A DNA stretch of 61,307 bases, filler included, from Kipferlia bialata (lineage: Eukaryota), in NCBI GenBank assembly GCA_003568945.1. It is 3 parts of 3 records of this genome, joined end to end, with 100 filler letters (N's around TTAATTAATTAA, not from the genome) between each part and the next. Parts side by side here need not be neighbours in the genome. Positions count along the whole stretch, not along the records: positions 20,476 to 40,841 come from BDIP01000380.1; 2 more parts are not named here. The stretch is one strand, 5' to 3'. Shown here in pieces: positions 215 to 44,562 of this stretch. Positions within the stretch are counted from its first letter, which is position 1, and each line of letters opens with the position of its first letter. The position numbers and the translations under genes are program-made. A model generated the notes under the pieces. That model made no database searches, had not been told where the DNA came from, and saw only the letters and a list, made by a program, of their open reading frames with translations.

Positions 215-3200
215 CTTCTAGCAGCCCCTGGCTCTGCCCCCCCGTGCTTCTCCCCCCAGGACGAGGTAGAGGGAGAGAGGGTACCAGTAGAGGTATATAG
301 TGTATGTGTATATGATGTGTAGAATTACTGTTTTATATTCTTATATCTAATTGTAATCTGATGAGATAGAGGGGGAGAGAGTGCCACTTTAGGTATCGAT
401 ATGTAGTAGTGTTGGACTGGTGTGAAATGTTTCTGACTATGCAAATGAAGGGATATTGAATTTTGGTGTGCTACAACATCCTCTCTCTCTCTACACCCTT
501 AACACCAGGGGTGAGACTCAGGAGGAGAGAGAGATTGACATTATCTTCTTCTCCTCCATATATTCATATATATTTGTGTATATATATACTTATACAATAT
601 ATCTTGCTTCCCCCTTAACACCAGGGTAGTTTATATGTATATATGCCAGAGCATATAATCCCTCTCTGCCTCTCTCTCTCTCTCTCTCGCTACACCCTTA
701 AATCCGGGGTGAGACCCAGGAGGGGAGAGAGATATCCTCCCTTCGTCGCCTTCTCTCCCTCTCTCTCTCTCCCTCTCCCTCTCTCTCTTTGCCCCCCTCT
801 CTATCTTATTACATCTTGTTCTCTCTCTCTACACCCATAAATCCAGGGTGAGACCCAGGAGGAGAGAGAGATTGATAGTGTCTTCTTCTCCATATATACA
901 TTTGTATTTATATATAGTATATATGTATATATGTCTTGCTACACCCTTAATTCCAGGGTGAGACCCAGGAGGAGAGAGAGATTGAGGCCCAGAGGCACAG
1001 AGAGGCCATACAGGCCAGAGTGAGGGACAAGATTGTGGCCAGGGCAGGTATCACTAATATACACTGTGTACATATATATAAGAATGTAATATAAATATAT
1101 ATGTATTTGGTATTATTTATCATTGGTTAGCCAGGCCAGAGTGAGGGACAAGATAGTGGCCAGGGCAGGTATAGCAAATATACATGTATGCATGTAATAC
1201 TACATTGAATTATATATGAATATAGTATTATATACATATATTGTACTACATTCACTTGACGATACCCTGCTGTTGCCATGGATATAAATATTTATATATA
1301 TCTAATGGTAGGCACTGCCCTTGACGATGCCCTTCTGTTGCCATATTGATATATATGTAAATATATATACATATTCCTTTAATATGTATGTGCATCATCT
1401 CAGGCACTGCCCTTGACGATGCCCTTCTCTTGCCATTTAGAATTATATACATATTCATACATATGTATATATTAGTATTCTATATATTCTATATATATCT
1501 CACCCCAGGCACTGCCCTAGATGATGCCCTGCTGTTGCATGTACACACACACACCCACACACACATACACACACACATATATATAGATATATGTATTGTC
1601 TTTGTTCTTAGACTCCAAGCTTATCTAATTGTAGGCCTGCTGTTGCCATGGATATACACATATACATATATATATATTAGTATTCTATATATATAGTTAT
1701 ATATCACCCCAGGCACTGCCCTTGACGATGCTCTGCTGTTGCCAGAGGGATATATATATATATATATAACCCCTATACATATGTGTATATATTCATACAT
1801 ATATATGTCATTTATGTCTCTGACTCCAGGCACTGCCCTGGACGATGCCCTTATGTTCCACACACACACATATATATATATAGATATATAGATAGTAGTA
1901 TATAGATAGTAGTATATATATAGAGATAGATATATGTATTGTCTCTGTTCTTAGACTCCAATCATATCTAATTGTAGGCACTGCCCTGGACGATGCCCTC
2001 CTATATGTCACTATTATGTATATATACCGAGTCCTCTCTCTATATATATCCTCTCTCTCTCTATATATATACCAGTCATGTCTAACCCTCTAGGCACTGC
2101 CCTTGACGATGCCCTTCTGTTGCCAGAGGGGTATGAGCTGTTGACAGGCACAGAGCTGGATAGGAGGTATATTAATACTATATACTATATACAATATACT
2201 ATATATTATATACTATATATATATATATATATTTTTTTTGTATAAGAGTAATAACATGATGGATGTACTATATACTGTCAGAGGGGTATGTTGACAGGGA
2301 CAGAGCTCGATAGGAGGTATATGCAGTGAATGTATACGATATAGTATTATATAACTCATAGGTATTAGGGGTATGAGCTGTGGACAGTCACAGAGCTAGA
2401 TAGGAGGCACTATATATATATAGGTATTTGTTAAACTCACCCCCAGTGAGATTGCTGTTCCTGAGGAGATCATCAACTGCATGTATATATGTATATGTAT
2501 ATATATATGTATTAGTATGCTTTGTGTCTATGTATGTGTATCTGAGTATATCCTCACCCCCAGTGAGATTGCTGTCCCTGAGGAGATCATCGAGCAGTAC
2601 ATCATACAGCCAGGGACAGAGGTACATAAGTATATATGGAGATGTATATATATATGTAAGTGTATATAGTATAGCTCGTGCGTATATATATGCATATCAT
2701 CGAGCAGTACATCATACAGCCAGAGACAGAGGTATGTAATTCACCACATATATGCTCTTTCTATTCTGTATATTATGTCGTTGTGTTTGTTTCAAGTGTA
2801 TTCCATCTCTCTCTCTCTCCGTCCCTCCCTCCTTACGCCTATTTTCTGTCTCTGTCGCTCTTATTTGTGCGTAGGTGTATATGTATGTCACCCACCCCCT
2901 CTCCTTACCCCAGGAGAGTATGCTTAGAGAGAGGGCCTGGAACGCAGTGCACAAGAGGTATGCATACAAAGCATATGATGTATATATTTTTGTGTATGTA
3001 CTGTATATACATAGTGTGTGTGTGTGTGGAACGCAGTGCACAAGAGGTATGCATGTTGATACAGCATGGTCATTGTATATATATCTTATGAATAGGGTAT
3101 ATGACGTGCCATCCAGAAGAGGCATGACATACTCTCCCTCCCCCTATCTCTCTCTCTATATATGTATATATGTATATATATACTTACCTGCTAGAGTGTA

Positions 3201-4379
3201 TGACCGTGCCATCCAGAAGAGACATGACAGGAGAGAGGCAGCCACATCGAGGGAGCAGCACAAGAGAGACAAGGAGAGAAATGCACAGGTACAGCTCTCT
3301 CTCTCTCTCTCTCTCTCCCCCGCTCTGTATATATACATGTATCAAGGAGAGAAATGCACAGATACATATGAGTACAGTTGTGCATGTCTGTTACTCTCTC
3401 TTGACATGTGTACTTTACTGAATTCGTCGCTCTCTCCCCCTCTACACCCTTCACTACTCACCCCAGGTCACTGTGGGGTTCTTCTTTCTCTCTCTCTCCC
3501 TCTACACCCTTTATTTCTCACCCCAGGTCACTGTGGGCGAGAGGGGCAGAGGCAGAGGCAGAGGGCGTGGAACGTACGTAATGTGTCATACATATTGGTA
3601 ATCTCGTGTTCCGTGCATGTGTTTAGATAATTCTTGCAAGTGTGACTATTCCATACTCTCCCTCCCATACTTCTAGCCGTACCCGCACTGGTGCCATTGC
3701 CCATTACCCCTAACTTGTGTATTTATTGATATATGCTTCAATGTGTATGTATCAGAATATGTCACTCCTCTTATACCTAGCCGCCAACGTGGAGAGTGCA
3801 AGGTATATAGTGATACTACTACACATTAATATATTACAGGTGTATATGTATATATATAGCATTAGTATATATGATATGGAGCATATACATGAGTGGGGTC
3901 ATGGATGCACCCAACGTGGAGAGTGCAAGGTATATATATCCATATATATATATGGATATTATGTATAATATATATATATGCTACAACGCGGAGAGTGTGC
4001 GAACATTGGCCCAACTATCCCCGGTATGCCAGACGATACTAGACCATTTATATATATATATGTGTGTGTGTGTGTATGCTATTATTGGCATCTCTCTAAC
4101 ACCCAGGGAGAGAGAGGCCACAGAGACTCCATGTATTCAATATATATATGTATATATATTGTATATATATATATATATATATATATAGTATGAGTGTTAC
4201 ATCCCATCTAACCCCCAGGGAGAGAGAGGCACAGAGACTCCATGTTCTACATATATATGTACATTCATTATATATATATATATATAGTTGGTGTATCATC
4301 TCTAACACCCAGGGAGAGAGAGGCCACAGAGGAGGTCGAGATGGAGATGGAGATGGATATGGAGTTCCTATTCAACTAG
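215..4379 (+). CDS. 3' part of a spliced gene; probable Brf1 (TFIIIB subunit)-like C-terminal region, 5' end off-contig
   Basis: Phase-consistent GT-AG exons at 215-292, 957-1047, 2094-2166, 2564-2621, 2914-2957, 3195-3288, 3527-~3573, ~3677-3693, 3781-3802 and 4313-4379 give ...SAPPCFSPQ...GTALDDALLLPEGYELLTGTELDRSEIAVPEEIIEQYIIQPGTEESMLRERAWNAVHKRVYDRAIQKR...EMDMEFLFN*. The PPxF motif and the 'EIxxYIxxxxExxxxxxxWxxxxxxY' pattern resemble Brf1 homology blocks. The gene is well supported; the Brf1 identity is by eye only. Confidence 0.5.
1254..2410 (+). repeat. Array of intronic copies of the splice-site/half-exon ends of exon 2094-2166
   Basis: AG|GCACTGCCCTNGAYGATGC copies at about 1311, 1403, 1508, 1712, 1829 and 1977, with partials at about 1254 and 1632. 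Exon-end/donor copies at about 2280-2320 and 2367-2408. Copies are separated by (TA)n/(CA)n tracts. Confidence 0.9.
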
Positions 4380-4656
4380 AGGAGCGTCTCGAGCGTCTTA
4401 GGGGTATGGGGCGTTTGGAGCATCACATGCCCCTCGATGTCTACACTATGGGTGTACTTCTCGCTTCTGTCTTCTTCTCTATCATATTCTTTATCGGTTT
4501 CGTGTCTTCTGGCTGTTTGTGATCTCACTTTCGTGTTGGTATTGTATTACCGTGTGTGTTTCTCTATGTGTGTTAATAGATAGGTGATATAGGTAATGTG
4601 TGGACTCTTTATGAAAGGGTATATGTTGCTCTTATACCACATGCCGTAATCAGTGA

Positions 4657-4856: not shown

Positions 4857-6257
4857 CTAGAAGTGCCAGTCCTCCCAGGCCACGCACCTCCTCTCCCTGC
4901 CCCTGCCCTGCTCTCTCTCTCTCTGGTACGGCTTGTAGGTGTGCTGCGCTGCTCTCTCTCTGTCACTCTCAAGCAGATCACCAAGACACCTAGCAGTAAG
5001 GGTTTCAAAAGGACATGTGTATAATATATACATGTACTTTTGATCCGGTATATTTAGGACACATAGGAAAGTTTCCGGGTTTTACCATGCCTGGTGTATA
5101 TGCAGGCATGCAAAATGCCTCCAACTCTAATGAGCCTATATGATATAGACTCATAGATAATAGTCTATATCATATAGACTCTATATAGTAAAGTGATTGT
5201 GACTATATACCTGGCAGAGGGGTCAATCTCTCTCTCCCTCTTCCTCACCCTCTTTGTCTCTGCCTCCCCCTCTTCCTCTTCATACTCTGCCTGGTAGGTC
5301 AGGGGCCCTATACCCGAGCCAGTCTCTGCTAGGGTTAGATATATGCAGGGATAATGAGTTTCACACACTATATGATATATAGGGTTAGATATATGCTGAG
5401 ATACAGATGTACATATCTAGATAGTAGCATACATACCAGAGAGAGTAACTGTCGGGTTAGACATATGCTGAGATATAGAGGTACATAAACTACATGTACA
5501 ACATATATAATAGAGGTACATATAGTATGTGTACTTCATATATATAGATTTACGATACATACCAGCCATAGTGAGTAGCTGCCTATACTTAGTGCCAACA
5601 GGTGCAGTCTCCTCCTCCCTAGAAGTGCTAGACTCCTCTAGGGGTGCTACAGAGGGAGAGAGAGTAGGTAGAGGGTGGCCCAGCCCTGTGACAGGGTGTG
5701 GATGGGGTGACAGGCGCAGGAGGATGTCCCTAGCTGTAGAGTACATGGCCTCGGGGGAGGGGTCTCTGCCCTAAAGTTAGTGTTATGGTCCATGTAATGA
5801 TACCAATATATATATTCACATATATATAATGAATTCCTATAGTCCATGTACTGGTACCATAGATGTCCTACACGTGTACCTCCATGAGTATGTCCATGTC
5901 CACTGGGCGGCATGGCTCCTCGGGGGCTGGGATGGGGCCTGAGTAAGCACGGAAGTACTCTACGAAGGCTCTAATTGCAATATTGGAATTGTGACAATGA
6001 TCCTGTAAAATGTGTATGCAAAGATTATGGTGTATGTGATGCTTGGCACACGGGAGGGACAATACCTGTGTCAGGTGCAGGGGAGGCACTCTCTCTTGCC
6101 GTGAGTCTCTCTGCCTCAGAGATGAACTCAGCTCTGATTGTCAGCTTATAGTATAGACCCTAGATATATGAATATATGAATCGTGGTGTATTTTTGTAGA
6201 AGATGCTGACATAGTCGTATGTACCTCCCCCCCTTGTCCATGGCCTCCTGCAGACCG

Positions 6258-6300
<43 letters not shown>

Positions 6301-9300
6301 TGGATAGATCATAGTGAATTCTTCTAGACGAGTCAAAGTATATGTGGGTTACCTCTCCCCCTTGTCCATGGCCTCCTGCAGAGCACTCTCCACAGCCTAA
6401 GGGTGAGTGAAGTAATTGTCACACAAATCCTCGGTAGTAGAAGAGACTATGCCTGTGGATCAGTCCCCAGAATGAGAGAGATCACATGTATGCAAATACT
6501 GGTTCAATGCGGAAGTCAGCGTATTAGTGACCATACCTCTTGGGCCTGCTCCAATGCAATACTGGTTGGTGGTCTGTCCCATAACTGCCTCATCTTCTGT
6601 TGGGTCTCTGCTACAGTAGAGACAACAGTAGGGGCATAGGTAGAAGCAGTAGGTGCAATGGTAGGTACAGTGGAGGGTAGGGGAGGGGCAGCGTGGTGTG
6701 GGGCCTGAGGTGAGGAAACAGAGTCCACTATTTGTAAAGAGTCATCACGACGCTACAGATGTGTATTGTCTTACCAGACAGGGGTGGTACCCCTTGGTCC
6801 ACCAGGCTGTTCCACAGGCATAGGTATCTATATATATCATAAGCTGTACTCATGATATCAATGTATAGGAGTTGCAATTATAGTACAATTACCATACCAG
6901 ACTGCGGTGATTCCCCTGTCAACCAGGCTGTTCCACATAGAGTATATAGTACATTGTATATATAGTATATAGTTGTTCAGCATTATAGTAACATCAATTA
7001 CTTAGGTATCCTCACCAGGCTGGGGTGGTACCCCCCTGTCCACCAGGCCGGGCCCCACTGCATGTCGGAGGGGTCCTGGGGGTTAGTGGCACTCCTAAGT
7101 ACCAGTACCATATCTGGTATATACTACCCACTGCATGTCGGAGGGGTCCTGGGGGTTAGGAAAGGGTCCCAAGTATATGCATATAGGTATACACAAATAT
7201 GCGAATAGGATCGCGATGGGTACGGAGAGACAGTGTCATGTAAGTGATATATATACTTATATATACTCATTCACCTGATCCCTATAGTCCACCACTGCCT
7301 TGGGTGCCTCCTCGGGTGTGAGACTCAGGGTGGAGGTGTCGAGGGGGACAAGGTCCGGCATCTGATGGTTAGAGTAGTATCTATATGTATCTCTATTATG
7401 ATGGTTAGAGGTTCGAATACGGAAATTGAATTACACTCAGTGTAATGGTTCTTCCTTCGGTTGCGAAATATCGACTATATATGGAACACAAACTCTGTAC
7501 CTCTGGGATCATCTCTCAAAATCTCACATACTTTCGCCATAGTGTATATTGTTATATATATTAAGAATGTATTACTATATATGATACATTTAGAATATCG
7601 TATATACTTTCTACCTCTGGTATCATCACCTCTATCTCATGTCAGATAGCAATTTTAACATAGGTTCAGTCATATGTACGTATACATATATATATGTGTG
7701 GGTATATACTATACACTGTACCTCTGGCATCATGGCCTCTATCTCATGTCTCTTCTGGTCATAGGTCTCGGCACTGGGGTGAGACAACATATGCAGAATA
7801 GTGTCCAAAGTATACCTTATTTAGAATGGAGAATCCAACAGTATAATTCTACCTCTACATATGCTTGAGAATACATCTCTTCTGTCATATGTCTTTGCAA
7901 AGGTGTGGAACAGAAAACGTAGGAGTCTGTATAGAACTCATCCGTGAAAGATATACTATCTATATACATATCTATGTCATATAGAGAGGGACTCGACTGT
8001 ATTAGAGTTGTTATGTACATGAATAAGTACCTCTCCCTCTGGTGCCCCTCCAGCCACCAGATGGCATTGTACACACGGTGCATGGCGGCCTTCCTCTGGG
8101 CCTGAGTATTAATAACACTTAGAAACTATAGTGGTGACCCCTTATATGAAATACATATACCTCTGGTATTGTGCTGCCTGGTGTCTGTATTCGACTTCTC
8201 AGACCATAGAGCAGGAGGTCCAGCTCGGTCTTGGCCTGCATATGAGATAATATTATATATATAGATACATACATATGTGTTGGTACATGAAGTATGTTAA
8301 ACTCTATGGTCGTAGAGCAGGAGGTCCAGCTCGGCCTTGACCTGGGGTAAGAGAGAGAGACAGAGCAGGATTCTGGAACATTCATACCCTCCTGTTTTAC
8401 TACTGGATATTGTATATAGGCCATACACTATATAGCCCATAGGATTGCATTCTGTACCTGGTGCCTGACCCTGACCTTGGCCAGCAGGGTCTTGTTGGCC
8501 AGGACCTAGGATGTGGGTTGCGTATATGGGAAAAATATTGGTTAATAATAATAATATGTTGGCCAGGACCTAGGGGTGAGGCATCTACATAACGTAAAAT
8601 ACATGGGATATGTCGCTAATAAATGTACCTGTTCAGCTGTGGGTGCCGATGGCTCTAAGAAGCTTGCAGGTCTCCCAATGCCGTATCCTGAGTGTAAGGG
8701 TTACACACTGATATATATATATATATATATACTCAATTATGACTCTCTACACCACATACATCCTGTAGTAGAGAGAGGGAGTTTCTCCCGATGCCGTATC
8801 CTATGGGTGTCAGATGCATATAGATACCATATATTGACTCTATAATAGAGACAGAAAGGGAGAGAGAGAAGGAAAACTAGGGTTGCGGTGTCCAGTGGCC
8901 ATATTACTCAAATACCCACAGGAGAGAGGGATAAGAGGGTAGGAGTATACAATGTATACTATACATATATACTAATAATCTATTGTATAGAGTGTATATA
9001 CCTTGTGCCCCAATACCAGCTGCCCTGGTGTAGTCCTGGTAGGACGGGACGGGGGGGACCTGGGGGTAAGTCATATACACACATAGGGAATATGGTCATA
9101 GTATAGGCCTCTCTCAGACACATATGTGCTTCTGTGTATTCTTGATAGCAGGGGACGGGGGGGGGCTAAAGGTTAGTTGATTGGATACATGGTATATATA
9201 TAGTCATAATGAAACACGTGCACATAGGGGACTGGGGTGAAGATAACTATCTGTAGATGTTAAATGGATATAGTACTATTATATACTTTGAGTTTTATTG

Positions 9301-9532
9301 CAGCCTGTGTATATATATTGTATGTAAGTAGGGCTTACGTTAGTCAGTATATCACACCTTGGGCTTTGGTGCAGTAATATATACACTGCATATATTTGTA
9401 TTAATTATACACAGTATGCAAGTGTACCTTTGGCTTAGGCTTAGGCCTGGCCAGGTCACGTGGCATGTATCTCTTGTCTACTCTGCCATCACCCGTCATG
9501 TGCAACCCCTCACGACCCCTGCGCAGTGACAT
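4857..9532 (-). CDS. Multi-exon hypothetical protein containing an Hsp70 C-terminal (lid/SBD-alpha)-like segment followed by a Pro/Ser-rich low-complexity region
   Basis: ATG at 9532 (MSLRRGREGLHMTGDGRVDKRYMPRD...). Exons at about 8458-8506, 8162-8236, 8031-8101 and 7721-7773 give VRVRHQAKTELDLLLYGLRSRIQTPGSTIPEAQRKAAMHRVYNAIWWLEGHQRESAETYDQKRHEIEAMM, matching the Hsp70 pattern AKNxLESYxxxxR...WLDxNQxAxxEEFxxKxxELE. Last exon ends AWEDWHF* at 4857. Confidence 0.6.
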
Positions 9533-20375: not shown

Positions 20376-20475
20376 NNNNNNNNNNNNNNNNNNNNNNNNN
20401 NNNNNNNNNNNNNNNNNNNTTAATTAATTAANNNNNNNNNNNNNNNNNNNNNNNNNNNNNNNNNNNNNNNNNNNN
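20376..20475. other. Artificial scaffold-concatenation linker
   Basis: 44 N + TTAATTAATTAA (stops in all six frames) + 44 N. Confidence 0.95.
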
Positions 20476-26043: not shown

Positions 26044-26325
26044 ACCTTGCACTGCATCAGCGGATCCTCACACCAGAAGCGTGAAGATCGGTTTACTAAA
26101 CGCATCAGAGACGCCAGAGAGGCAGGGCAGGTATATATACATATACAATAGTATTGCATAGCAACTGTACTTCTTGTCTCTGTGCACCATTCCCCCCCCC
26201 CCCCATATTCTCACTGACTTAGTGGCTGTTGCGTGACCCCCATCATGTGCCCAACTTCCTGAGTCGTGTCATGGATGATGCCCTGCAGGATGTGCTGGGC
26301 AGGTGTCCATTCCATATCACACACA

Positions 26326-26364
<39 letters not shown>

Positions 26365-28607
26365 CATATACTATACCTGAGTTCTGTGCAGCATGTGCTG
26401 GACAGGTACCAAGTCTCTCTCTCTCTCTCTCTCCCTTATTAAATAATGTTTTGCAGGATGTGCTGGGCAGGTAGGGGCACATTCTATGTCACTATTTTTC
26501 TCTCTCTCCCCCCCCCTCTCCCCCCTGTATACGTCTCTCTCTCGACTGTTCCGGATTGTCTAGGGATATATCTTGTCGTTTAATGTCCTGAGCTTACTCT
26601 CTCCCATCTTTCTTTCTCTCTCACTCTAAGAGTTGCTCCATCTGAGGCCGATACTCTCTCTCTCTCTCTCTCTCTCTCTCCCCCCCCCCTCTCCCCCTCA
26701 TGTTTTAGGGTTGCCTCTGAGCACATCACTGCCCCCTCTGAGGCCGATCATGTCCTGATAGACATGGCCCTCAGGGATAGACAGGCAGCCATACTCACAG
26801 GGGACACAGACATGTGTAAGGTTTGTACATAGATACACATATAGATACATTAGTATTATATATATTCATGATATGTAGCACATTCTAGATATGTGCTAGG
26901 TGAGTGTGTGAATGTCAATCCACTCCCCCCTCCTCCCTCCTTTCACCCAGGTAGCCACCACCGTTGTATGGGCCAAGACCCTGTATAAGACACTGCTCTC
27001 TCTCAAGGGTGGAGAGACAGAGAGCGCGAGGGTATCAGTCACAGACAGCAGGAGTGGCAAGGTTAAGAAACTGTTGCACGAGTATCACCAGGTATAGTAG
27101 CAACTCGTACTGTATGGATATAGTGTTTTCCTCTATACATCTAACCCCCAGCCCCGTGTCACCTCTGTCACTGTTAGTCCACCCCCTGTATACACCCACC
27201 AGATGACAGGGAGACCCCTGCCACACTCATTTTTATCGGTGCTCAGACAGGGTATGTGCATACATCTTTCATTCATGCACATGTATATTGTATATGTGCA
27301 AGTACGTCCCCCCCTCAGTTACTAACAATATAGGCCTCATGTCCAACACCCTTGCAGACCTTGTGGCCCAGGGCATAGCCACCAACCAGCCTGGCATAGA
27401 GTGCACGGGGCTCCACTCACCTTGCACCGCAGTCAATGTCAGGTGCACACTCAATATTGGGCATACTTATGGCACTTTGAATCATGCTAACCTTCGTACC
27501 TAACCCTCAGAATGTACACCAACCTAGCCAACATGTGTCTGTGCACTGGACCCCTCATACCCCCAGGGGCATCTATTACCATAGGGTCCTACCTAGGCCG
27601 GCAGCCAGATAGTATCCACGTCCCATTGACAGGCACATGTACAGCTGTGTCTAACAAGGGGAAGATGGTAGAGACCCGTCTACCCACCTTCACTGATATA
27701 TACCCTGAGACTGGTACATTGAATACCAGTCATAGGGATAGGTTTGTGTGTCTGGCTGCCTTGGGTAGTATGGACACAGACTATATGGACAGAGTAAGGG
27801 ACCCATACGACATACAGCGCACACTGCTTCTGTCCATAGTGGCTAGGGAGGTACTTGATGGTGGTATTGCACCCTACAGGTTGCTGTCCTTGGCCATGCT
27901 CCTAGGGGGTGTGAAGCCAATAGATGGTGCATACAGAGTGACTGAGGCCGATACCTCCACCTATGCTCTGCTCAACGTGTGTCTGCCTATAGTCAGGGCA
28001 TACCTCTCAATGGGACCGGACAGGTACCTAGTCTGCTAATACAGTATACACACTGTACATATATAGTGTCGTACTGACCCCCAGATACACCCCTGCCCTC
28101 TACCCCTCCTGTGACCACCGGACATGTCTGGCTCTCAGTGCTCAGGTAGATCACATTCTACATATTTATGTATATCCATATATATACGTATATATCCATG
28201 TTCATTATTTACCCAGGTTCGCACTGAGGCACCAGAGCTCTGCCAGTTGCAACCATACTCGGTACATGAGCTGTATGCAGCACTGACCAGATGCATGAAC
28301 AGGACTGCAATGACTGGATGGGAGAATCTGCATTTGGATAGCATACCCTTGTTTGCCAGTGTAGTGAAGGAATACCCTTGAGAGCCTGAGGATAGGGTCT
28401 TTGAATGAGCAGACCTTCACTCTGCGGAGGTTGGCTCCCCTAATGGTCCATGCACAACTGAGGTTCCATAGTGATAGAATAGGGACAAAGTGTAGGTCTT
28501 CAGAACCATCCCTGATGTCCTTGGCTGCACTCGATGCTAGTGGTCTTGGTGTCTCTTTCGTAAACGATATGCACATGGATCCACTAGACTGCAAGGACTA
28601 CAGCTGA
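25579..28607 (+). CDS. Asteroid/XPG-FEN1-family PIN-domain nuclease; apparent frameshift near 28370
   Basis: MGIRGFYGAL...LLVDLSAL...VVVVKDG...EADHVL...AAILTGDTD are the XPG-N/XPG-I motifs, with a long Asteroid-like C-terminus. Confidence 0.65.
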
Positions 28608-28946: not shown

Positions 28947-31900
28947 TCAGCGCCTCCTGCCCTTGTGCTCGTGTAGACACTGCTCACAGACCTTGACCCT
29001 GGGGTGAGGGCAGAGTAGTATCATTGAATACATACATATATATATATATGTGAATATACACACAATGCTACTTACTGTACACTGACCTTGTGTACCCCAG
29101 GTCTGGCAGGTCCACCACATGGCTGCAACACTTGGAGCACAGCACCCTCCCACAGGCACGGCAGTGGTGGCGTCTACAGTGAGTAAGTACGTGACAAGCA
29201 AGGGAGTAGACAATTGACCAACCTGTTTAGGAACTTGCCAAATGCCACACCGCACTCTGGACACACTAGCATGTTGGCATTGATCTCCCACTGGGGGCGG
29301 AGGCCCACCTAGGTGTTAGAACATACATGCATACACTAATACATATTGGAGTGTGGTATACAGTATAGTACAGGAAGGGTATGGTACCTGCTCCCTTGTG
29401 ACCCCCTTCCCCCTCCCGCCCATGCCCTGCAGAGTGGCAGTGTCTCTGTCTAGGAGAGAGTCAACCCTGACAGTCAGAGAGAGAATGATTCCACTATATA
29501 CTATATACCCTACACAATCAGTATATACATATACAACTATACCTCCCCATGACGTCGTCCATGGCACTGGTGATGCCCTAAGCACATACATAACCACTAT
29601 ATATACATATATACTCTATATACACTACACTACTGTATGTACCTCCCCATGACGTCGTCCATGGCACTGGTGATGCCCCTCAGATAGGGTGCAGGGGTGA
29701 AGGGTACAGGGGATGCACTGAGTGGGGAGGCAGGGGTGTCTGGGACCACAGGCTCTCTTAGTAACTGACATGCAGAGGCACCCCCAGAGACAGCGGAGAG
29801 GTCGAGGACTGACACAAACCTACAGGTTAGGAGGGGTAGATGGAGACGGAGAGAGAGAGAGACAGCGGAGTGGTCCAGGACAGAGACGAACCTGGGGTAA
29901 ACAGAGTAAAGACAGTCATGGAACGAAGTATATATATGATATAGAGAAGAAGCGGAGGGAGACCAAGTGGAAGGGAGAAAGAGAGCAGGACAGGGTATGG
30001 CTATGTACCTAGCGATGTCTGGTGGGAACAGGGACGGGACGGGGTAGAGCTGATGGCCAACCTGGGGGTGAGGGTGCATATATATAGAGCGCAGAAAACA
30101 GTCCTTTGCATATATATACACTCATTTACATCAACAATAATACCTTCACCAGCCTCTCACACCCAGCTGCATAGAGCAGGACTAGCTTGACAAGGGCAGG
30201 GCCTGTGATGGCACGGGAGTCAGCTGGAGTCAGTGAGAGATATATATATATATATGGACTAGTGTACAGTATATACTATGTATACCTTCCATCTCGTCCT
30301 CACTGCACTCTGCCCCTTCGTTGCCCTCTCCCTCTCCCTCGGTCACACCCACTACCCCAGCCACGCATATGGCAGCCAGGTATGCCACGGGTGGGACACC
30401 AGCCCCGTCTGTGGCATCGGGGTCGGCACCTGCAGCCTAGGGTTAGAGTGAGAGAGAGAGAAAGAGGGAGAGAGAGAGAGAGAGAGAGAGCTGAAGCATC
30501 GGGGTCGGCACTGGCAGCCCAGGGTGAGAGAGAGAGAGAGAGAGAGGGGGGGAATGCAATAGTACTCTTAGTAAGATAGAGAGAGACGTACCAGCAGCGC
30601 TGCAAACACAGTGGGACTGCCTGTTAGGGCTGCCACGTGCAGAGGGGTGAGTCCAAACTCATTGGAGGCACCGACGGCACCGGTGATGGCTGAGCCTGGG
30701 GGGGTGAGGGAGGGGAAAGAAGGGGTTGAGCGAAGGGGGACTCGCTACAAATATCTATAGTAATCATACTATTGTATATGTCTATACCTAGTCTGAGCAA
30801 GCTGAGCAGCCCCCTGACTGCCTCCTTGTCCTCTGGCACAGCATCACATATATATACATAGTGTAGTATATATACGTGTATGTCTATACCTAGTCTCAAC
30901 AGACTCAGTAACCCCCTGACTGCCTCCTTGTCCTCTGGCACAGCATCACATATATACATATACATAGTAGTATNNNNNNNNNNNNNNNNNNNNNNNNNNN
31001 NNNNNNNNNNNNNNNNNNNNNNNNNNNNNNNNNNNNNGTCTCAACAGACTTAAGAGTCCTCTCACTGCCTCCTTGTCCTCTGGCACAGCATCGCCCAGGG
31101 CACCGTGGGTCTTGGTCTTGCACTTGGTCTGGGGGTGAGACACCAAGGTATATACAGCTAGATCTGATATATATATATGAAATCAGGTCGCGTTGCTTGG
31201 TCTGGGGGTCAGGCACATATGTATATGTATATATATGAAGTGACAGGATAGTGTTTAGAATTGTGGGTCTTGGTCTGGCACTTGGTCTAGAGGTGAGTCA
31301 GGGAGTATTACACACATAGCAGTTATAGATACACCCGATATTAGAAGTGAGTGACAGTGTATAGAATTGTGGGTCTTGGTCTTGGTCTTGCACTTGGTCT
31401 GGGGGTCAGCCATTAAGGAATATGATACAGGTATATATACACACACACATACTATATATGGATACACCCATACCTCCATTGTGACGCTGTCCACGTGTCT
31501 CAGCAGTGCAATCAGCCACACCCTGGCGGCATCAAGCAGTCTGAAGGGGTAAGGAGGGAGAGAGAAAGAGGAGAAGAAATACATAGTATCCAGCAGTCTG
31601 AAAGGGGTCAGAAGGGGGAGAGAGAGTGAGGGAAAATGAACATGAATACAATCAATATAGACTTCATTAGTATATATTCATATACATCCAGCAGTCTAGG
31701 GGTCAGAGGGGAGAAGTGGAGTGGGTGTAGCAGAGATAAGAATATATATATATACCTTCCAGCCTCCTTGACCGCATCCTCAATCTCAAATGCATCACTG
31801 TCCTCATACTATCTATGACACATATACACTAATTAGTGTATATATATATATATATATGAATATGCATATATACCTCCCGGCCTCCTTGACCGCGTCTTCA

Positions 31901-32695
31901 ATCTCAAATGCATCACTGTCCTCATACTATCTATAACACATATATACTAGTTAGTGTATATATATATATATATACATACCTCCCGGCCTCCTTAACCGCA
32001 TCCTCAATCTCAAATGCATCGCTGTCCTCATCGCTGAAGGTGTCATAGATGTCAAGGTCATCGGCCGCTAGGCCAAACCTGGGTGTGGGTGTGAATTATT
32101 TATTAATTATTACAATGCTATAGACATATTCAGCACTCTATCTATAGTGTTATATATATATACAGTGTATACACTAACAGTGGCACATACCTCAGCAGCA
32201 GGGGCAGCAGGGACAGCTCAAACACAGAGTCAACGGCACAGCGCCTGGGGTCAGGGGGACACACATACATACACATACATACATAAGCATCAGCGTATGG
32301 CTCTGGGTATATGTACCTTGGAATGAGTGCGCGCCTCTCCTCCGGTGTCTCCCCCCACCCCCCTGCCTTAGTCACACACTGTGTGTGACAGGGGGTGGGG
32401 CACCCACAGGACTGCGTGGCACGCTCACACTCCCTGGCGTCCTGGGGTTCGAGAGATCTACATACATACACATATACATGAGTATACATACTGTACCCAC
32501 CTGATCCCCGACCCAGTTGACCAATGGCAGTATGAGGGATGCCACTGGGAAGGGAATGGCAGTGTCGGAGTCGTGTCTGGGGGTGGGGAGAGACATAACA
32601 AAGAGAGAGAGATGACATAGGAGAGCATGCACTACAAATCATCCCCACCCACCTTCCCTCTCCCTCCCCGTGCCATGCTATGTCGTCCACACGGG

Positions 32696-32738
<43 letters not shown>

Positions 32739-33878
32739 CACCAGATGCAAGGTACACCCACCTACTATCCCCGTTTCCATGTCCTGCTATGTCGTCCACA
32801 CTGTATCTGCTGTAGCTGGAGGGCACACAGCGCAGCACCTGGGGTGTCAGCACAAGAGTTTACATATATGTCTAGATTGTGAAGGTGTCGACACACTAGT
32901 GTGCATAGTAACTAGTAACTACATACGTATATTCCTGTGTGTGTGTGTCGCTGGGGGTGCAAAACAGTGTGTATATATACATACCTGCGTGTGTGTGTCC
33001 CTAGTGCATAACAGTATCCAAGTGTGCAATGTATAGAATACAGTGTATATATACATAAGTATACTTGCGTATGTGTGTCCCTGGTGCATGGCAGGTAGTG
33101 GTAGGGCACATTCCCGTCTGAGTCTCTGGCCGATGTGCCCTCTCCCAGTGTCCTCCTCCTGGCCACACTGGCACCGGCCTCCATCCCTACCTCACCCCCG
33201 GAGAAGGTGTCAGCTAGGAGTTAGGGGTACATATTCACATATATACTTACATACATAAGTATTAGAGATAGAGACACAGTACCTAGTAGCGATATGACGT
33301 CTCGGGGTGTGATGACAGCACTTGAGGCTGGGTATACTACACATACAATATATATATATATATACCAGGGGGGAGTGATATATAGTACCTAGTAGGGATA
33401 TGACGTCTGGGGGTGTGATGACAGCACTTGATGCTGAGGTGGGTGAGAAGGAGAGGTCACTGGCCCTCTCCTTGTCCCTCTCTGCCATCTCAGCCCTGAG
33501 GGCCTCAGCAACAGACATCTAGGGGTGATAAGGGGTGTAGGGAGAGAGAGAGAGGAAGAGAGAGTTTGTGTGTGAGAAAGATATACTCACACACACCCCC
33601 TACCTGAGGGGAGAGTGAAAGTGACCCCCTCCTGGACTGTCTGGGGGATGGGGAGTGGAGGAGGTTGGACAGGGAGTCTGAGACACCCTGCATCTGTCGG
33701 TCCTGGGTATGAGTATACACAAAGAATATATATATTATATACAGAATAGTACTTCATGGGGCATCGTACCAGGCTACCCTGTGCTGAGTCTGTCCCCTCT
33801 CTCTCCTTGCCCTGTGCCTTGTCAGATGGTCTGGATTGGCCATCTCCATAGGACTGGGCCTGGGTTAGGTATGTGTAT

Positions 33879-33917
<39 letters not shown>

Positions 33918-34149
33918 TAGAGGGTCATGCTTGAATGCGTATGATACCTCTGCCGACCCACAGTCCAGTGCGAGGACATGGATCAAGGGCACACGGACCT
34001 GGGGGGTCAGGGGACACGGAGGGAAGGAGAGAGAGAGAGGGAGAGAGTGTGTTACCCACCCTAGGCTCTGGGTGGCATATGATGGACACAAAGGCAGCTG
34101 GGAGGCAGTGGAAGGGGCGGATGACACTGAGGGTAAGAGGGCGCCATAT

Positions 34150-34189
<40 letters not shown>

Positions 34190-34288
34190 TCATAGGTATA
34201 CCTGTTGGGGCTGTCGAAGAGTGCGTTGTGGGTATCGTCACCAATCTCCACCTCAGACCCACACAGCCACCTGGATGTTAAGGGTGTA

Positions 34289-34326
<38 letters not shown>

Positions 34327-34935
34327 CTGATGGACCTCTGGGACTGTACCTCCTTGCACCGGGTATAGAGCTCACTGGAGGTAAGGAGGGGGTCGTGACA
34401 AGGTGTGACAAGGTGTGTATGGACATGTACCTGTAGTATCTGCACCCAGCCAGTATGCCGCACTCCTCTGCGAATGTCCTCCTCCTCAGCAGATCATCGG
34501 TCAGCTTGGTCTCGCCTAAAGGTCAGTGATGCGAATGAACAACAATACAAGTATATAATGGTACATACGTATATAGTGGATCCTCAGTCAGCTTGGTCTC
34601 GCCTAGGGGGTCAGATATACAGCGTAGACGAATAGGGTGCTATAGAACTAGGTCTGGGGGGTCCGGGAGGAGACGGGTGTATAGGTATAGAGTGAGATGT
34701 TAGGTATTCCCCTACCTAGCAGGGCCAGCGTCCATACATGTACATGTAGGGTGTCATCTACTTTGTAGAATAACATGTATCATAATGTATCATAAAACAA
34801 CAGACTCCCTGTACCTAGGAGGGCCAGGGTCCTCCTGTCAAACCCTGATGCAGCGGCATATGCACAGGCACGACGCAGCTGACCTCTGGCATACTTGAGA
34901 ACCTTTGGTCAGAGAGAGAAACGGAAAGAGAGAGG

Positions 34936-34968
<33 letters not shown>

Positions 34969-37900
34969 CCGTACCAGTGCCTCCAGCTCTGCAAAGGCCA
35001 AGGAGGTGCCCGACCCCTGGGACAGACCGGTCACCTGGGGTTAGGATGCATATAAATACCATTAGAGATGCAACTTATACTACTATTTACTATTCATGGA
35101 ACACCCACCTTTGCCAGCGTGTCATACTCGACGTGTCTGAACGAGTCCCTCAGGGTTGGGAAGTATGTGGTGCTGATGGTCTCCATCAACATACGGACAA
35201 CGTCAGACAGGCCGTTTCTAGGGGTTAGAGAGAGGTAGATAGATAGATATATATATAGAGAGAGAGAGAGAGAGTATACCTTGCTGCCAGGATAGCCAGG
35301 TGTGGTAGAAGGGTGGTGCGGCGCATGCCCAGGACCTGTTGGTCGGGGTCACTCTGCATGACCTAGGGGTGAGGGAGGGAGTATGTCTACCCACTATTAC
35401 AATAACTATGCATATATACATTTAGGTAGTGACATACCTTTGGCTTGTTCCTCTGTCTCCTGACGGCAGAGTATGTAGCGATGGAGAGAGAGGAGGCAAG
35501 CTTGGAGGCAAGGGCGGCTGTCTCCTCATTGGGCTGTGCATCACCCTCTCCCTCTCCCTCTCCCTCTCCCTCTGCCTCCTCCTCCTCCTCTTCCTCTGTG
35601 ATAGGCTGTGCCTGTACGACATGCATGACAGTACTGGATGGTACACAGCTGAGACCAGAGGCGTAGGAGCTGTACCCGCTGAAGGAGGCCCAGCCATCCT
35701 GGGGGTAAGGGAGAGGGAGAGAGAGAGTGTGTGAGAGTCATACTAAATATATACATATACCATATGTACAATTAGTATACCTCTAGTGCCTGTTCCGACA
35801 GACTGTGCTTGTCCACGCACTCTGCCAGTACCCTCAGGTGGTAGCTGTCCAGGATGCCAGAGAGAGAGGGACCGTCCATCTGACAGTCAGAGACGAAGTC
35901 TATACACTGACCTAACTAAACACAATGATTAGATGTTAGAGAAGTACTATCGCTAGTATATCTGGAAATTCACACTAGTGGTACCTGCAGGTGTCGGAGT
36001 GGTCCCTGTATCTCCTGCAGGAGGGGTATCTTGGCAAAGACACCCAGCTGGGCAGAGAGGTGGCCTGCAGCAGCCAGCATCTCGACAGACCTGGCAGTCT
36101 CTGAGGGTGAGGGGGAGAGTAGGACAGGGGTGGTATGTATAGAGAGTAAGTATAGGGAGGATATGTATACATATGTGTATATATAGTCACCTGCTATGGG
36201 CCTTCTGGCCTGGCACAGGTAGGACAGAGGGGTGTTACCGGTGGCATCAATCCAGCCAACTATCACCCTGGGGTTAGGTGGAGAGGAAAAGAGTAGCAGT
36301 AGGCCTATAGGAAAGTGTACCTGACGTCTGCTGTGCCGCAGCTGTTGATCATTCTGACCAGGGTCTATTAATGTATCTATCTCTCTATGTATCTCTCTAT
36401 ATATACGTGTATATCCATACCTGACGTCTGCTGTGCCGCAGCTGTTGATCATCCTGACCAGGGGCTCAAGACACACATCACTGTAGGGGTGAGAGAGGGA
36501 TGTATCAGTGTGTATATAGATACTGATACTGGTACTAGGGTGATTGTATGGCAGGCCTACTAGTGATAGTGTACCTAGGGGGCCTGGTCTCCTCTCCCTT
36601 GGCCTGTCTGTCGATGCAGGCACACCTGGGGTGGGGGGAGAGAGATACCTTGCATAGTCCACAAGTGTCTGCTATACATACATATACATACATATATACA
36701 CATACTAGTATATGTATATATACAAATACGCATACCTAGCATAGTCCACCAGGGGCACTGAAGAGATATGTGCTCGGGTGTTGTCATACATCAGCACACA
36801 TATATATACATCCCCCTCTCTCTCTCTATATATATATATATATGTACATGCATACATAAATGCATACCTAGCATAGTCCACCAGGGGCACTGATGAGATA
36901 TGTGCTCGGGTGTTGTCATACATCAGCACATATATATATACATCCCCCCCCCTCTCTCTCTCTATATATATATATATATACATGCATACCTAGCATAGTC
37001 CACCAGGGGCACCCAGGGGAGGGGCAGCGAGGTGGGCTGCCAGGCAGGCATCACGGTGTCACCCCTGAGGCCTAGGATGGGGGTGGAGTCTCCAGATATA
37101 CTGCACACATACAGCAAACATCACAATGGTACACCACTCCATATGGATGTTACCTAGCAATGCTGGGAACTCTGCGATGTTGCCTGCACAGCTGGAGCCA
37201 TCGGGGGTGATCCTGAGGGGTGAGAGAGACGACATATACAACAGGTCTGGGGGTGATGTAAAGTCTGTACTATTGACTATACCTGGGAGGGAGTGAGAGG
37301 GATGAGAGCTGGCTGGCTGCAATGTGCAAGGGTGTCCTGTGCAGCTTGTCAGTGAGGGCAAGGACAGCGGTCACAGGGGCAGCAAGGGTGCCTGGGGGTG
37401 GTAAACACACATATAGTATACAGTATAAAGAATATATAACATTCACATTATAGATAGGTTTAATATAGTGACAGGGGCAGCCAGGGTGCCTGGGGGTGGT
37501 ATATGCAATATACATACTGATTCAACAATGCTCGATAGACCATGATTCTCTATACTAATGATCATTGAATCAGTATATCCCTACCTGTGAACTGGCCAGA
37601 GATGAGGGCATCACAGACCTGGAGGTCAGAGAAGACAGTACAGACACACATATATATAGAGAATTGGCACAACACTCGAGGCAACTAATACTGATTGGTG
37701 TGAGAGTCACCGTACCTCAGTCAGTAGCTCCACACTGCTAGAGTAGACAGCACAGTGCAGCACTGACCTGGGGTAAGGGAGAGATAATGATCATGGCAAC
37801 AAAACCCACAGTACGGACACTACTATTATACAAAGAGAGATACATAGGCCTCACCCGAAGTACTCTGACACAGCCAGCACATTGTCAAAGGGCAGCAGCA

Positions 37901-39358
37901 GCTTGGTCAATGAAGGGTCAGGGGCAAGGAGGGCAGAGAGGAGCAGAGGGGTCAGGCCATACCTGGGTGAGTAGATAGTATATGAATACAGAGAGAGAGA
38001 GAGAGAGCTGGGTGAGGGGGAAGTAATGAGTAGATACGCTATATATATATATATATATATACAGAGCGAGCGAGAGAGGGATACTATGAATCTGTACGTA
38101 CTGGTCTGGGGGGCAGAAGAACTGGATGGGAGCCGAGTGGTCCCCAAAGGCACATGAGATGGCCACATTAGAGTGGGTGGAGGGGCCCTCCTCCTTCTCC
38201 TTCCCCTTGCCACTCTCTCCCTCTCCCTCCGCCCCTTCCTCTACCTCTGCGTCTCCGGGTAGCCTTATCAGCTCACTCTCATCAGGGGCAGGCTGGTTCT
38301 CAGGAGAGGGGTGGTCACTCACTGCCACCAGGTCATTGAGGGTCTCAAAGACAGTGAGCAGGAAGGCAAGGATCAGCTCCAGAGAGGGAACAGAGCCTAG
38401 GGTAAGGGAATAGCGAATCTCACGGTAGCCACCTGAATAGGATTATATAGTGTACCTAATGCGAAGTAGTGCATGGGAGACCGCCCGTATATGTCCTGTC
38501 CAAATGCGTGCTGGATGTTGTCGAAGTACCCAGCATCAAGGTCCTCACCCAGACAGGTCAGCAGGACCTGGAAGGGTAAGGGGTCGTCAGAGAGACTATA
38601 TCTACTCACTTGGATATATATGGTTACATATGGTTGTCAGGGTACCTGCAGACAGCGTAGGTATGCCTCTGGTGTCTCGTTCTGCCCTGTCTCATAGTCC
38701 AGAGACTGGTCTGCAGACTGCACCTGGGATGGTGAGTGGAGGGGGAATATAGTGCGGTATATGGAATATCAAATATCGAAGAGTGAGTGGATGGGTACTA
38801 CCAATTGGGTTGCAATAGGAGAGTGCCATGGAGAGAGTGTGGTGCTATCTGCACGTACCAGCAGCTCTGAGTCCCCGACAGCCAACAGGTGCAGCACAGT
38901 GTGGCCCCTGGGGTTAAGAACACATCAAGAGAGTGGAAATATGGTGTGTTCACTGCAATGTAATATCTGATATTTATCCTTGGATGGTTGTGTGTACTCC
39001 AGCCCTCACCTCTGTGTGCTCTCAGAGGCCACTGCACAGAGGTCTCTCTGACACATCTCTCTGGGGTCAGACATATAGGGAGAGAGAGAGAGGGGGGGGG
39101 GGAGAGAGAGTATATGCCCACCTAAGGAGTACGTGGTCTGCCTTGAGTGCCGCAAAGTGGGCCGGGGTGAAGCCATGCTCGTCCTGGGGTGAGGGAGGAG
39201 AGAGAGGTATGGAATGTAAACAGGAGTATAGTATTGAGAGAAGCATATACACTGACACCAACATGGTACCTGAGGTGTGATGAGTCCCCCTGCCTCAAAA
39301 AGAGCATGGACACAGTCGAGATCACCCTGGGGGTCAGTATCGGAAAGAGAGAAGAAGA

Positions 39359-39410
<52 letters not shown>

Positions 39411-40073
39411 CCACCCACCCTGAGTGCAGCCAGATGGAGTGGACTGTGTCCGGCAGCTGTGAGCTTGTTGGCGTCTGCCCCGGTCATCAACAGGGCATCT
39501 GGGGGGTGAGAGAGTGAGGAGAGGGGCAATAGCAGAGAGTGTGGAGGAACTACTGGGAGTATGGAGAGAGTCACTGTGGGTAAGTAAGAGTAACCAGGGG
39601 TGGCTGAACTCAGGAGGGGGGGCAAGCAGTACAAAGAGAGGGCAGGAGGAATACTCCATACGACAAAGAGATAGGAGAGACACAGTCACATGAGTACCTA
39701 TGAGGCCTGGCAAGGCAGCGTCTGCGGCATAGTGCAAGGGGGTCTCTCCATAGGCGTTCACAGCATCCACCACATCCGCCCTAGCGATGGAGCTGGGTGC
39801 ATAGGTGGGCTCTCCCCCCTCAGTTCCTCCAGTCTCGTATTCAACAGGTGGGGGGACACCTGTGGCGATGATGCAGTTGACGATCATGCTCACGAGGTCC
39901 TCCCTCTCCTGCAGCACCACTGCATGTAAGATGGTGCTGCCCTCGGGGTCCCTCAGCTGCAGGGGGTCCTCGGCGTCGGCTATGATGCCCCTCAGCATCT
40001 CGTCCCTGTGCTGGCCCAGCGCAGCCTCGATCAGAGGCCACTGCGGGGAGGCATCCCCGCTCCAGGCTGCCAT
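28947..40073 (-). CDS. Large ankyrin-repeat protein with C-terminal FYVE domain (Rabankyrin/ANKFY1-like architecture), more than 30 exons
   Basis: Ankyrin motifs GSTILHAVV, GETPLHYAA, GHSPLHLAA, GFTPAHFAA, GRSPMHYFA, HRTPLHIAA and GLTPLHVAA. Last three exons (29310-28947) splice to WEINANMLVCPECGVAFGKFLNRRHHCRACGRVLCSKCCSH...RVKVCEQC...RRR*. Confidence 0.85.
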
Positions 40074-40841: not shown

Positions 40842-40941
40842 NNNNNNNNNNNNNNNNNNNNNNNNNNNNNNNNNNNNNNNNNNNNTTAATTAATTAANNN
40901 NNNNNNNNNNNNNNNNNNNNNNNNNNNNNNNNNNNNNNNNN
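40842..40941. other. Artificial scaffold-concatenation linker
   Basis: 44 N + TTAATTAATTAA + 44 N. Confidence 0.95.
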
Positions 40942-43306: not shown

Positions 43307-43667
43307 TCATCCGAACATCATTGAGAGCCCACTGCCACTCCCCTCAGGCTTGTCTCCCTCTGACCTCTCCTCCTGTGTACTGGCCTGTCTCAGCAGACGC
43401 ACCCACCGTCTGCGCTCGGCCTCGTCCTGATGGGGTCAGTATACATTCATACAATGATATATGTATTATATAGTGTCGATCTACACATGAAAGGCGTTGA
43501 GCGTTGATATCATACCTCTGCCTCAAAGACATAGACCCTGGTCTCCCCGGGTATGGCTATGGTGAATATGTGCGGGTGGGATCGGTTGGACTGCACAGGG
43601 GTCACCACTGCCCCACTTGCAAGAGAGATGGTGCCTCTGGGGACGCTGTCACCCTCCTGGGTATCAG

Positions 43668-43707
<40 letters not shown>

Positions 43708-44562
43708 CCCTCCTGGGTATCAGAAGAGAGTAATAAAGGAAAAGTGAGAGAACAAGAGAGAGAGAGAGAGAGATTGTGTGAGATGAAGTCTAACCTTGCG
43801 GTAGTAGAACAGGTTCTGGTACTCTAGGACACAGAACCGAATGCGCCATGATTTGATGCGGCCTCCCTGCTTCCTCAGCCAGCCACGCTTCTGGGGTCAG
43901 GATAGATAGAAGCGATACAAGAGATAGAATAGTCTTATAGAGTATAAAATTTACACCAGAGACAGTGCCCTCACCTCTACTAGTGCTGGGGGAGTGACGC
44001 TGTGTGTGGTACTAGTTGTGAGTGCCCCCTCCTGTCCATCGCCTGTGTCTGTGCCATAAGAGTGTGCCTGTGCAAAGGACCCAGAGAGAGAGGGGCTGGG
44101 GTGCATGGTTCCCACAGGGGCCACGGTCTCAGTGACGTCTGCCTCTGGGCCCTCCACAGAGTACTCATAGTCTGCCTCCGGGTCTGGCTTGGGACCGGTC
44201 TTCCTCACATCCAGGCCCCTCACCTTGACACTCCTGGCCGTGAACTGCACTGTCTCCTCCTCACACGTGGCAGACTGGTGGGTGCCAGTCCACTCCAGAG
44301 GGCTAGCAGGGGCCTCAGTAACAGCACCCCCAAGCACAGTGGAGGGAAGGGTCACATAGTCACCAACTACAAGAGACGCAGGGTTGTGGCGCTTACGCTC
44401 TGCTGCAGCTACCTCCAACTGTATCCACCACTCACTCCCTATCTCATCATCACGACAAGCAGGCGAGGGGAACGTCGTGTACCGAGGGGGGAGCAGGGCT
44501 GGGAACATACTGCAAAAGAGAGGTCCCTCTGACTCAGAGGGCTCTGAGCGTTTTTGTGTCAT
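43307..44562 (-). CDS. PH-domain protein
   Basis: Spliced KRGWLRKQGGRIKSWRIRFCVLEYQNLFYYRK|EGDSVPRGTISL...HIFTIAIPG...VFEAE|DEAERRRWVRLL, a canonical PH domain, after a low-complexity first exon. Confidence 0.85.

What the first reader, a model, noticed from the sequence alone, without database searches (positions are those of the whole stretch)
31756..32078. Gap-free triplet: EDSDAFEIEDAVKEAG with only synonymous differences
Minus strand. Real: AGC GAT GCA TTT GAG ATT GAG GAT GCG GTT AAG GAG GCC GGG AG|gt. Echo 31925-31874: AGT...GAA GAC GCG GTC AAG GAG GCC GGG AG|gt. Echo 31807-31756: AGT...GAG GAT GCG GTC AAG GAG GCT GGA AG|gt. Each echo has four differences from the exon, all synonymous. 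The nearest upstream AGs would give a wrong phase or an in-frame stop, so ordinary cassette use looks unlikely. No N gap is involved here.
Basis: partly seen in the sequence, partly recalled or inferred. Interest (0 to 1): 0.85.

Follow-up and report, generated by a model that had tools for sequence, protein, structure and literature searches.

The report
Silent exon-end echoes inside introns
In the free-living protist Kipferlia bialata, exon ends are often copied into the neighbouring intron, where the spliced transcript skips them; this triplet's copies differ only at silent positions, more often than free decay predicts, likely because they were captured from other working alleles during DNA repair.

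Summary
The locus is intron 31979-31541 of Kipferlia bialata KIPB_002343 (ankyrin + FYVE). The last 52 nt of the exon plus GT occur three times; all six variable sites are silent. DNA contigs hold each copy at full depth, and the spliced contig uses only the first copy, so this is neither an assembly artefact nor tandem cassette exons. It is one case of a common habit: 43 echoes in 27 of 72 introns of three genes on two scaffold pieces, 40 anchored at the adjacent splice site, none a whole exon. The right null is pN/pS 0.5 (live copy constrained, echo free), not 1. That null fits the singleton echoes and gene KIPB_002338, but not the triplet (at most 0.5% of simulations) or the neighbouring array (13 of 13 silent; 0 simulations). 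Best reading: break-repair duplications at AT-rich intron ends, some copied from diverged functional alleles. Allele capture is inferred; no second haplotype or isolate was seen. Ten paper searches found no description.

The parts
31980..32078 (-). Live exon of KIPB_002343 (99 nt); its last 52 nt (32031-31980) are the duplicated piece
   Evidence: Exact spliced match to P0001; spliced contig matches 31990-32076 with 0 other letters
31926..31979 (-). Used donor and spacer 1 (54 nt; AT run, weak predicted hairpin)
31874..31925 (-). Donor-side echo 1 (52 nt, 4 silent differences, GT follows)
   Evidence: 85-nt DNA contig with its letters at depth 482
31808..31873 (-). Spacer 2 (66 nt), homologous to spacer 1 (3 mismatches in the last 33 nt)
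31756..31807 (-). Donor-side echo 2 (52 nt, 4 silent differences, GT follows)
   Evidence: inside a 747-nt exact DNA contig at depth 503
31686..31695 (-). Acceptor-side echo (AG + first 10 nt of next exon, one silent difference)
31588..31597 (-). Second acceptor-side echo (10 nt, same silent difference)
31474..31540 (-). Next live exon (67 nt); the last of three acceptors is used
   Evidence: record coordinates of the spliced contig
31129..31473 (-). Next intron, with three acceptor-side echoes (31398, 31286, 31201), all skipped
   Evidence: joint 31128-31474, CT..AC
30791..31128 (-). Neighbouring array: live exon from 31128 into the N gap, echoes 30947-30893 and 30845-30791; 13 of 13 events silent
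   Evidence: live copy matches the spliced contig at 31040-31128
28947..40073 (-). Host gene KIPB_002343, ankyrin repeats + FYVE; 18 echoes in 13 of 49 introns
215..4519 (+). Gene A (hand model, 5' end missing); 16 echoes in 6 of 8 introns, 7 scored acceptor echoes in one 1046-nt intron
   Evidence: open frame across 9 exons; no protein or RNA confirmation
4857..9499 (-). Gene C, KIPB_002338; 9 echoes in 8 of 15 introns, no silent bias

Best explanation
The triplet is a real tandem duplication of an exon end plus its splice donor, skipped in the spliced contig, that likely arose by break repair at the AT-rich intron start and whose copies were likely taken from other, then-working alleles, which would explain why they differ only at silent sites. 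Shown: partial copies that cross one splice site pile up in these introns, and the outermost donor and acceptor are the ones used. Inferred: (1) breaks or slippage at AT runs are patched by homology- or microhomology-based repair that duplicates 15-55 nt of exon with some filler; (2) whole-exon copies would be spliced in and are purged, one-sided copies are tolerated; (3) when the template is a homologous chromosome carrying a diverged allele, the retired copy starts life with silent differences only, then decays freely. The echoes themselves have no proposed function.
For: Full-depth DNA contigs for every copy and spacer, and double depth for the 37 nt shared by the two echo units. 43 echoes in 144 adjacent intron-exon comparisons against 4 in 1440 non-adjacent ones; 40 of 43 reach the splice site; 0 whole-exon copies. 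AT runs in 22 of 27 echo introns against 14 of 45 others, and 0.11 against 0.04 per intron base. Silent excess beyond the 0.5 null: pN/pS 0.21-0.25 overall, P 8e-5 to 2e-3; 0.20-0.24 in genes A+B without the two extreme arrays, P 0.004-0.018. Each of the three triplet copies has two private silent changes, though only one copy per chromosome can be live at a time; three-state silent codons occur. The replacement differences that do occur look like random decay (BLOSUM -0.78 against -0.58 null). The species lacks Ku70 and has PolQ and five Rad52 entries (PMC8516963 supplement rows) and is reported diploid from k-mers (PMC5874029 passage).
Against: No second haplotype at 90% or more likeness appeared in 2.7 kb of DNA contigs (contigs drop variants, so this is weak). 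With gene C included and the two extreme arrays left out, the excess is not significant (32 silent: 30 replacement, P 0.07-0.32; one longest echo per array 29:35, P 0.33). Gene C shows no silent bias (5:15). The neighbouring array has 13 silent events in about 9 codons, high for allelic variation, and lies beside an N gap; its two echoes were outside the stretch checked against reads. Setting gene C apart was done after seeing the data. Allelic silent diversity would have to be roughly 0.1-0.2, which is unmeasured.
Confidence: 0.5

Rival explanations
1. Plain duplication from the sister chromatid; the live copy keeps only silent changes, the echo decays freely, and the triplet is the lucky extreme that caught the reader's eye.
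For: Fits singleton echoes (22:21, pN/pS 0.33-0.43, P 0.11-0.38 against 0.5) and gene C; 9 of 43 echoes are identical to the exon; replacement changes are not conservative; 31 arrays were available to choose from.
Against: Triplet all-silent in at most 0.5% of matched simulations, neighbouring array in 0 of 1295-2729 per setting; multi-echo arrays 29:9, P 2e-5 to 3e-4 against 0.5; the two spacers differ at 3 of 33 while the echoes' roughly 36-40 replacement sites differ at none.
Confidence: 0.25
2. The exon part of each echo is repeatedly overwritten by gene conversion from working copies, possibly from spliced RNA or cDNA, so likeness stops at the splice site while intron flanks drift.
For: Several near-identical echoes have intron flanks no more alike than unrelated introns: 36/36 with 3 nt of flank likeness at 29578, 44/46 with 3 nt at 36366; RNA- and cDNA-templated repair is named as an option for metamonads (PMC8516963 section 8).
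Against: Conversion from the cell's own live copy alone again predicts pN/pS 0.5. No echo match continues into the next exon as a spliced template might give (not tested systematically). My search selected for long exon-side matches, so short flank likeness is partly built in; mean flank identity is above baseline (0.48 against 0.30 for donors).
Confidence: 0.13
3. Echoes are occasionally used in transcripts (alternative or non-canonical splicing), so selection keeps their codons.
For: Echo splice signals are nearly as strong as real ones (donor median 7.0 against 6.3; acceptor 8.7 against 11.3). Contigs cannot show minor isoforms.
Against: No echo has both splice sites; every canonical route into the triplet echoes frameshifts or meets a stop; the spliced contig uses the live copy here and skips echoes in 4 further introns with listed joints.
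Confidence: 0.07
4. Assembly chimera that placed haplotypes in tandem.
For: No listed contig spans two whole units; run X1 may be the sample the window was built from.
Against: Each copy and both spacer junctions stand at full depth (447-503), the shared node at 1000; haplotypes would be at half depth. Echo 2 lies in one exact contig with the next two exons.
Confidence: 0.05

Closest known systems
Human F7 intron 7 minisatellite (37-bp unit spanning the exon-intron boundary; PMC1557585, abstract read)
   Same: A repeat unit crosses the donor; downstream copies of the donor stay silent and the most upstream one is used.
   Different: One locus there; here 27 of 72 introns in three genes, on both donor and acceptor sides, with filler between units and a silent-site bias.
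Intron gain by tandem genomic duplication of an AGGT proto-splice site (PMC3443670, PMC2891723, passages read)
   Same: Short tandem duplication involving exon sequence and splice signals leaves the protein unchanged.
   Different: There a purely exonic duplication makes a new intron; here an existing intron grows and the copy carries the intron's own GT or branch point and AG.
Insertions flanked by short direct repeats from staggered double-strand break repair (Daphnia new introns, as reviewed in PMC3443670)
   Same: Direct repeat plus filler, attributed to break repair.
   Different: Attributed to NHEJ there; Ku70 is absent in this species; repeats here are 13-55 nt and recurrent at one site.
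Mutually exclusive or tandem duplicated exons (recalled)
   Same: Adjacent copies with silent-biased differences.
   Different: Copies here lack one splice site and are skipped in the spliced contig.
Silent donor cassettes kept by gene conversion (Borrelia vls, Neisseria pilS, chicken Ig pseudogenes; recalled)
   Same: Partial, unexpressed copies beside a live gene that may exchange sequence with it.
   Different: Those diversify the protein; these preserve it and sit in ordinary housekeeping-type genes.

Membership tests
Tandem/mutually exclusive exons | Each copy has its own acceptor and donor and keeps frame | tested here: not met
   53-nt frameshift or 57-nt stop, poor acceptor scores; 0 of 43 whole-exon copies
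Tandem/mutually exclusive exons | Copies appear in spliced RNA | tested here: inconclusive
   The one spliced contig uses the live copy; minor isoforms cannot be seen in contigs
Boundary-spanning tandem repeat with silent pseudo-donors (F7 IVS7 type) | Repeat unit includes exon end and GT | tested here: met
Boundary-spanning tandem repeat with silent pseudo-donors (F7 IVS7 type) | Only the most upstream donor is used | tested here: met
   Spliced contig: 77 letters between mapped pieces equal 10 + 67 expected; live-copy letters at diagnostic sites
Boundary-spanning tandem repeat with silent pseudo-donors (F7 IVS7 type) | Copy number varies between individuals | not testable with these tools
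   One sample only; no relative found in metagenome contigs
Intron gain by tandem duplication of AGGT | A wholly exonic segment is duplicated and the stretch between the two proto-splice sites becomes a new intron | tested here: not met
   Units contain intron sequence and lie inside a 439-nt intron with its own branch point and acceptor
Break-repair tandem duplication with filler | Direct repeat separated by sequence not present at the original junction | tested here: met
   The last 33 nt of both spacers have no counterpart after echo 2; later loss there is not excluded
Break-repair tandem duplication with filler | Dependence on PolQ or Rad52 | not testable with these tools
   Genes listed as present; no genetic test
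Assembly artefact | Junctions absent from reads or copies at half depth | tested here: not met

The most novel reading that the evidence does not exclude
Kipferlia introns are an archive of alleles: repair between homologous chromosomes keeps parking exon ends from other working alleles inside introns, so one genome records the silent diversity of a recombining population, evidence for sex or parasex in a fornicate, and drives intron growth in a lineage without NHEJ.
Probability: 0.4. Interest if true: 0.8.

Novelty: new variant of a known kind. Interest (0 to 1): 0.6.

Why it matters
Duplications across a splice site are known as single curiosities; here they shape a third of the introns examined and more than double intron length in gene B (median 193 against 80.5 nt). 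If the silent excess holds genome-wide, non-expressed copies carry the mark of protein selection, which plain decay cannot give. It would make two open questions testable from existing data: whether metamonads recombine between diverged homologues (sex has not been directly observed in the group, PMC8516963 passage), and how a short-intron spliceosome skips up to seven or more good acceptors to use the last one. Practically, echoes mislead annotation: P0001 carries a duplicated peptide from an echo next to an N gap.

Tried and rejected
No whole genome is held, so counts rest on one window. Read evidence covers only 31040-33700; genes A and C and the echoes at 30791-30947 have none. No run is on record as RNA; X2 is a guess, though its contig skips CT..AC introns. 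No other strain: degenerate pattern 0 matches, exon-1 search 0 confirmed of 505 candidates. No protein record for gene A's last exon (0 of 237 candidates). TAG-as-glutamine rescue of the 57-nt cassette rejected. First echo scan had a complexity filter that dropped the triplet itself; replaced, which still drops low-complexity echoes and those scoring under 13. GC direction of changes (silent W>S 29, S>W 21; replacement 10, 22; Fisher P 0.02) was not used, because the plain model predicts the same pattern. The private-change test (15 silent: 10 replacement, P 7e-4) was given little weight, because some changes may lie on the live lineage. Conservative-replacement test was negative. Error-prone copying with selection on the new copy was rejected by reasoning: error-laden copies landing in the echo slot would survive and be replacement-rich. 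Nested inner-first splicing was rejected as general: donor and acceptor counts are unequal in most introns. Earlier-findings look-ups returned nothing.

Full report
Identity. The first exon at 39759-40073 (minus) matches one protein at 100%, Kipferlia bialata KIPB_002343, 1628 aa, with ankyrin repeats and a C-terminal FYVE finger. An exact spliced alignment gives 50 annotated introns; one (31049-30935) is an artefact of an N gap and an echo. The flagged stretch is the end of exon 32078-31980 and the start of intron 31979-31541. The window joins three scaffold pieces at N spacers (source contig lengths 20375 and 20366).

The observation. The last 52 nt of the exon plus GT recur at 31925-31874 and 31807-31756. 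Six sites vary, all third-position silent transitions; each copy has two private changes. The spacers are homologous to each other (3 mismatches in the last 33 nt), and that part has no counterpart after echo 2. Two 10-nt copies of the next exon's start, each behind an AG, lie in the same intron.

Is it real DNA? Contigs of run X1 laid on 31040-33700 (13 laid, some pieces not shown) give a 747-nt exact contig through echo 2 at depth 503, an 85-nt contig with echo-1 letters at 482 (placed on the echo-2 position, so the echo-1 bin reads 0), spacer contigs at 447 and 487, the live exon at 461, and a 37-nt node at 1000 that is identical in the two echo units only. Full depth for each copy and double depth for the shared node fit tandem copies, not haplotypes. 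No listed piece spans two whole units, so the order is inferred, and X1 may be the source of the assembly.

Is it used? One 2876-nt contig of run X2 (RNA is a guess, but it skips CT..AC introns) matches 31990-32076 with no other letters, which covers all four sites that tell the live copy from echo 1 and two of four for echo 2. The joint over the triplet intron is not listed, but the 77 letters between mapped pieces equal the 10 remaining exon bases plus the 67-nt next exon. Listed joints skip echoes in four other introns, including three acceptor echoes at 31129-31473. Canonical routes into the echoes frameshift or hit TAG, and TAG is not used as a sense codon in this gene.

How general? In three genes (A, a hand model at 215-4519; B; C = KIPB_002338) I compared each of 72 introns with its two flanking exons: 43 echoes in 27 introns, against 4 hits in 1440 non-adjacent comparisons. 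Low-complexity matches and scores under 13 were dropped before the count. 23 are donor-side, 20 acceptor-side, 40 reach the adjacent splice site, none copies a whole exon. Echo splice signals are close to real ones in strength. Echo introns are richer in AT runs. Outside these genes a splice-anchored scan found only two sites, near 26303-26471 and 46509-46558, after setting aside a coding minisatellite and a gap-side repeat, so the habit is patchy.

Is the silent bias special? Of 115 mismatches, 79 are at third positions. But if the live copy is constrained and the echo is free, pN/pS should be 0.5, not 1. De-duplicated and tail-trimmed: all echoes 51 silent: 30 replacement, pN/pS 0.21-0.25, P 8e-5 to 2e-3 against 0.5. 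Without the triplet and its neighbour: 32:30, P 0.07-0.32. Genes A+B without them: 27:15, P 0.004-0.018. Gene C: 5:15, no bias. Singletons: 22:21; multi-echo arrays: 29:9. One longest echo per array without the two extremes: 29:35, P 0.33. So the plain model covers much of the window. It does not cover the triplet (all-silent in 0-9 of about 1230-2160 matched simulations) or the array at 30791-31128 (13 silent events; 0 of 1295-2729 in all nine settings), even allowing for 31 arrays in the second case.

Mechanism. On one chromosome only one copy is live at a time, so silent-only private changes on all three branches need several functional lineages in parallel: alleles. The most economical account is repair of breaks at AT-rich intron ends, sometimes using a homologue with a diverged allele, leaving a one-sided duplicate that splicing ignores. 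The species lacks Ku70 and has PolQ and five Rad52 entries (PMC8516963, supplement rows; section 8 read) and is reported diploid (PMC5874029, passages). The steps from breakage to allele capture are inference. Against it: no second haplotype in 2.7 kb of contigs, no other strain found, and a very dense cluster of silent changes in the neighbouring array.

Known parallels. The F7 intron 7 minisatellite (PMC1557585, abstract) shows the same first-donor rule at one locus. Intron gain by tandem duplication or break repair (PMC3443670; PMC2891723; passages) is related but makes new introns. The genome paper's main text has no occurrence of 'duplicat'. Ten searches (listings only unless named above) showed no description of such echoes in Kipferlia or of silent-biased intronic exon fragments; the library lacks most subscription papers.

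Verdict. Real, unexpressed in the contig seen, part of a wider pattern, a new variant of splice-site-spanning duplication. The silent excess is firm for two adjacent arrays, moderate for genes A and B, absent for gene C. Interest 0.6.

Noticed in passing
window 30890-31128 (-): The public protein P0001 repeats a short peptide because the annotation joined the live exon to an echo across the N gap by a false intron (31049-30935).
   Followed up: yes
window 215-4519 (+): Gene A is open across 9 hand-placed exons; the middle resembles the TBP-binding end of BRF1 (recalled, not tested). One 1046-nt intron holds at least 7 acceptor echoes, each with a different branch-point region.
   Followed up: partly
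window 7722-7710 (-): The annotated donor of KIPB_002338 at 7709 is probably 12 nt too far; echoes point to the GT at 7721, also in frame.
   Followed up: partly
window 36649-37012 (-): Three donor echoes; two are a recent 132-nt re-duplication, the farthest has two silent differences.
   Followed up: partly
window 26275-26475 (+): Two donor echoes in a gene that I did not model; one appears to carry replacement changes.
   Followed up: no
window 43652-43761 and 46500-46565: An acceptor echo with a mostly intronic match, and an identical donor echo whose GT is lost.
   Followed up: no
window 40942-61307: This scaffold piece has almost no AT runs and almost no echoes; it includes a long, intron-poor gene (about 48600-60420) with repeated propeller-like motifs (by eye).
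   Followed up: no
window 16593-16817 and 18650-18970 (+): A 15-nt coding minisatellite (15 copies) and CCHC zinc-knuckle-like repeats (by eye) in one long gene.
   Followed up: no
window 20376-20475, 40842-40941, 15804-15910: N spacers with a 12-nt linker join scaffold pieces; an exact 52-nt repeat around a 3-N gap is probably an assembly overlap.
   Followed up: no
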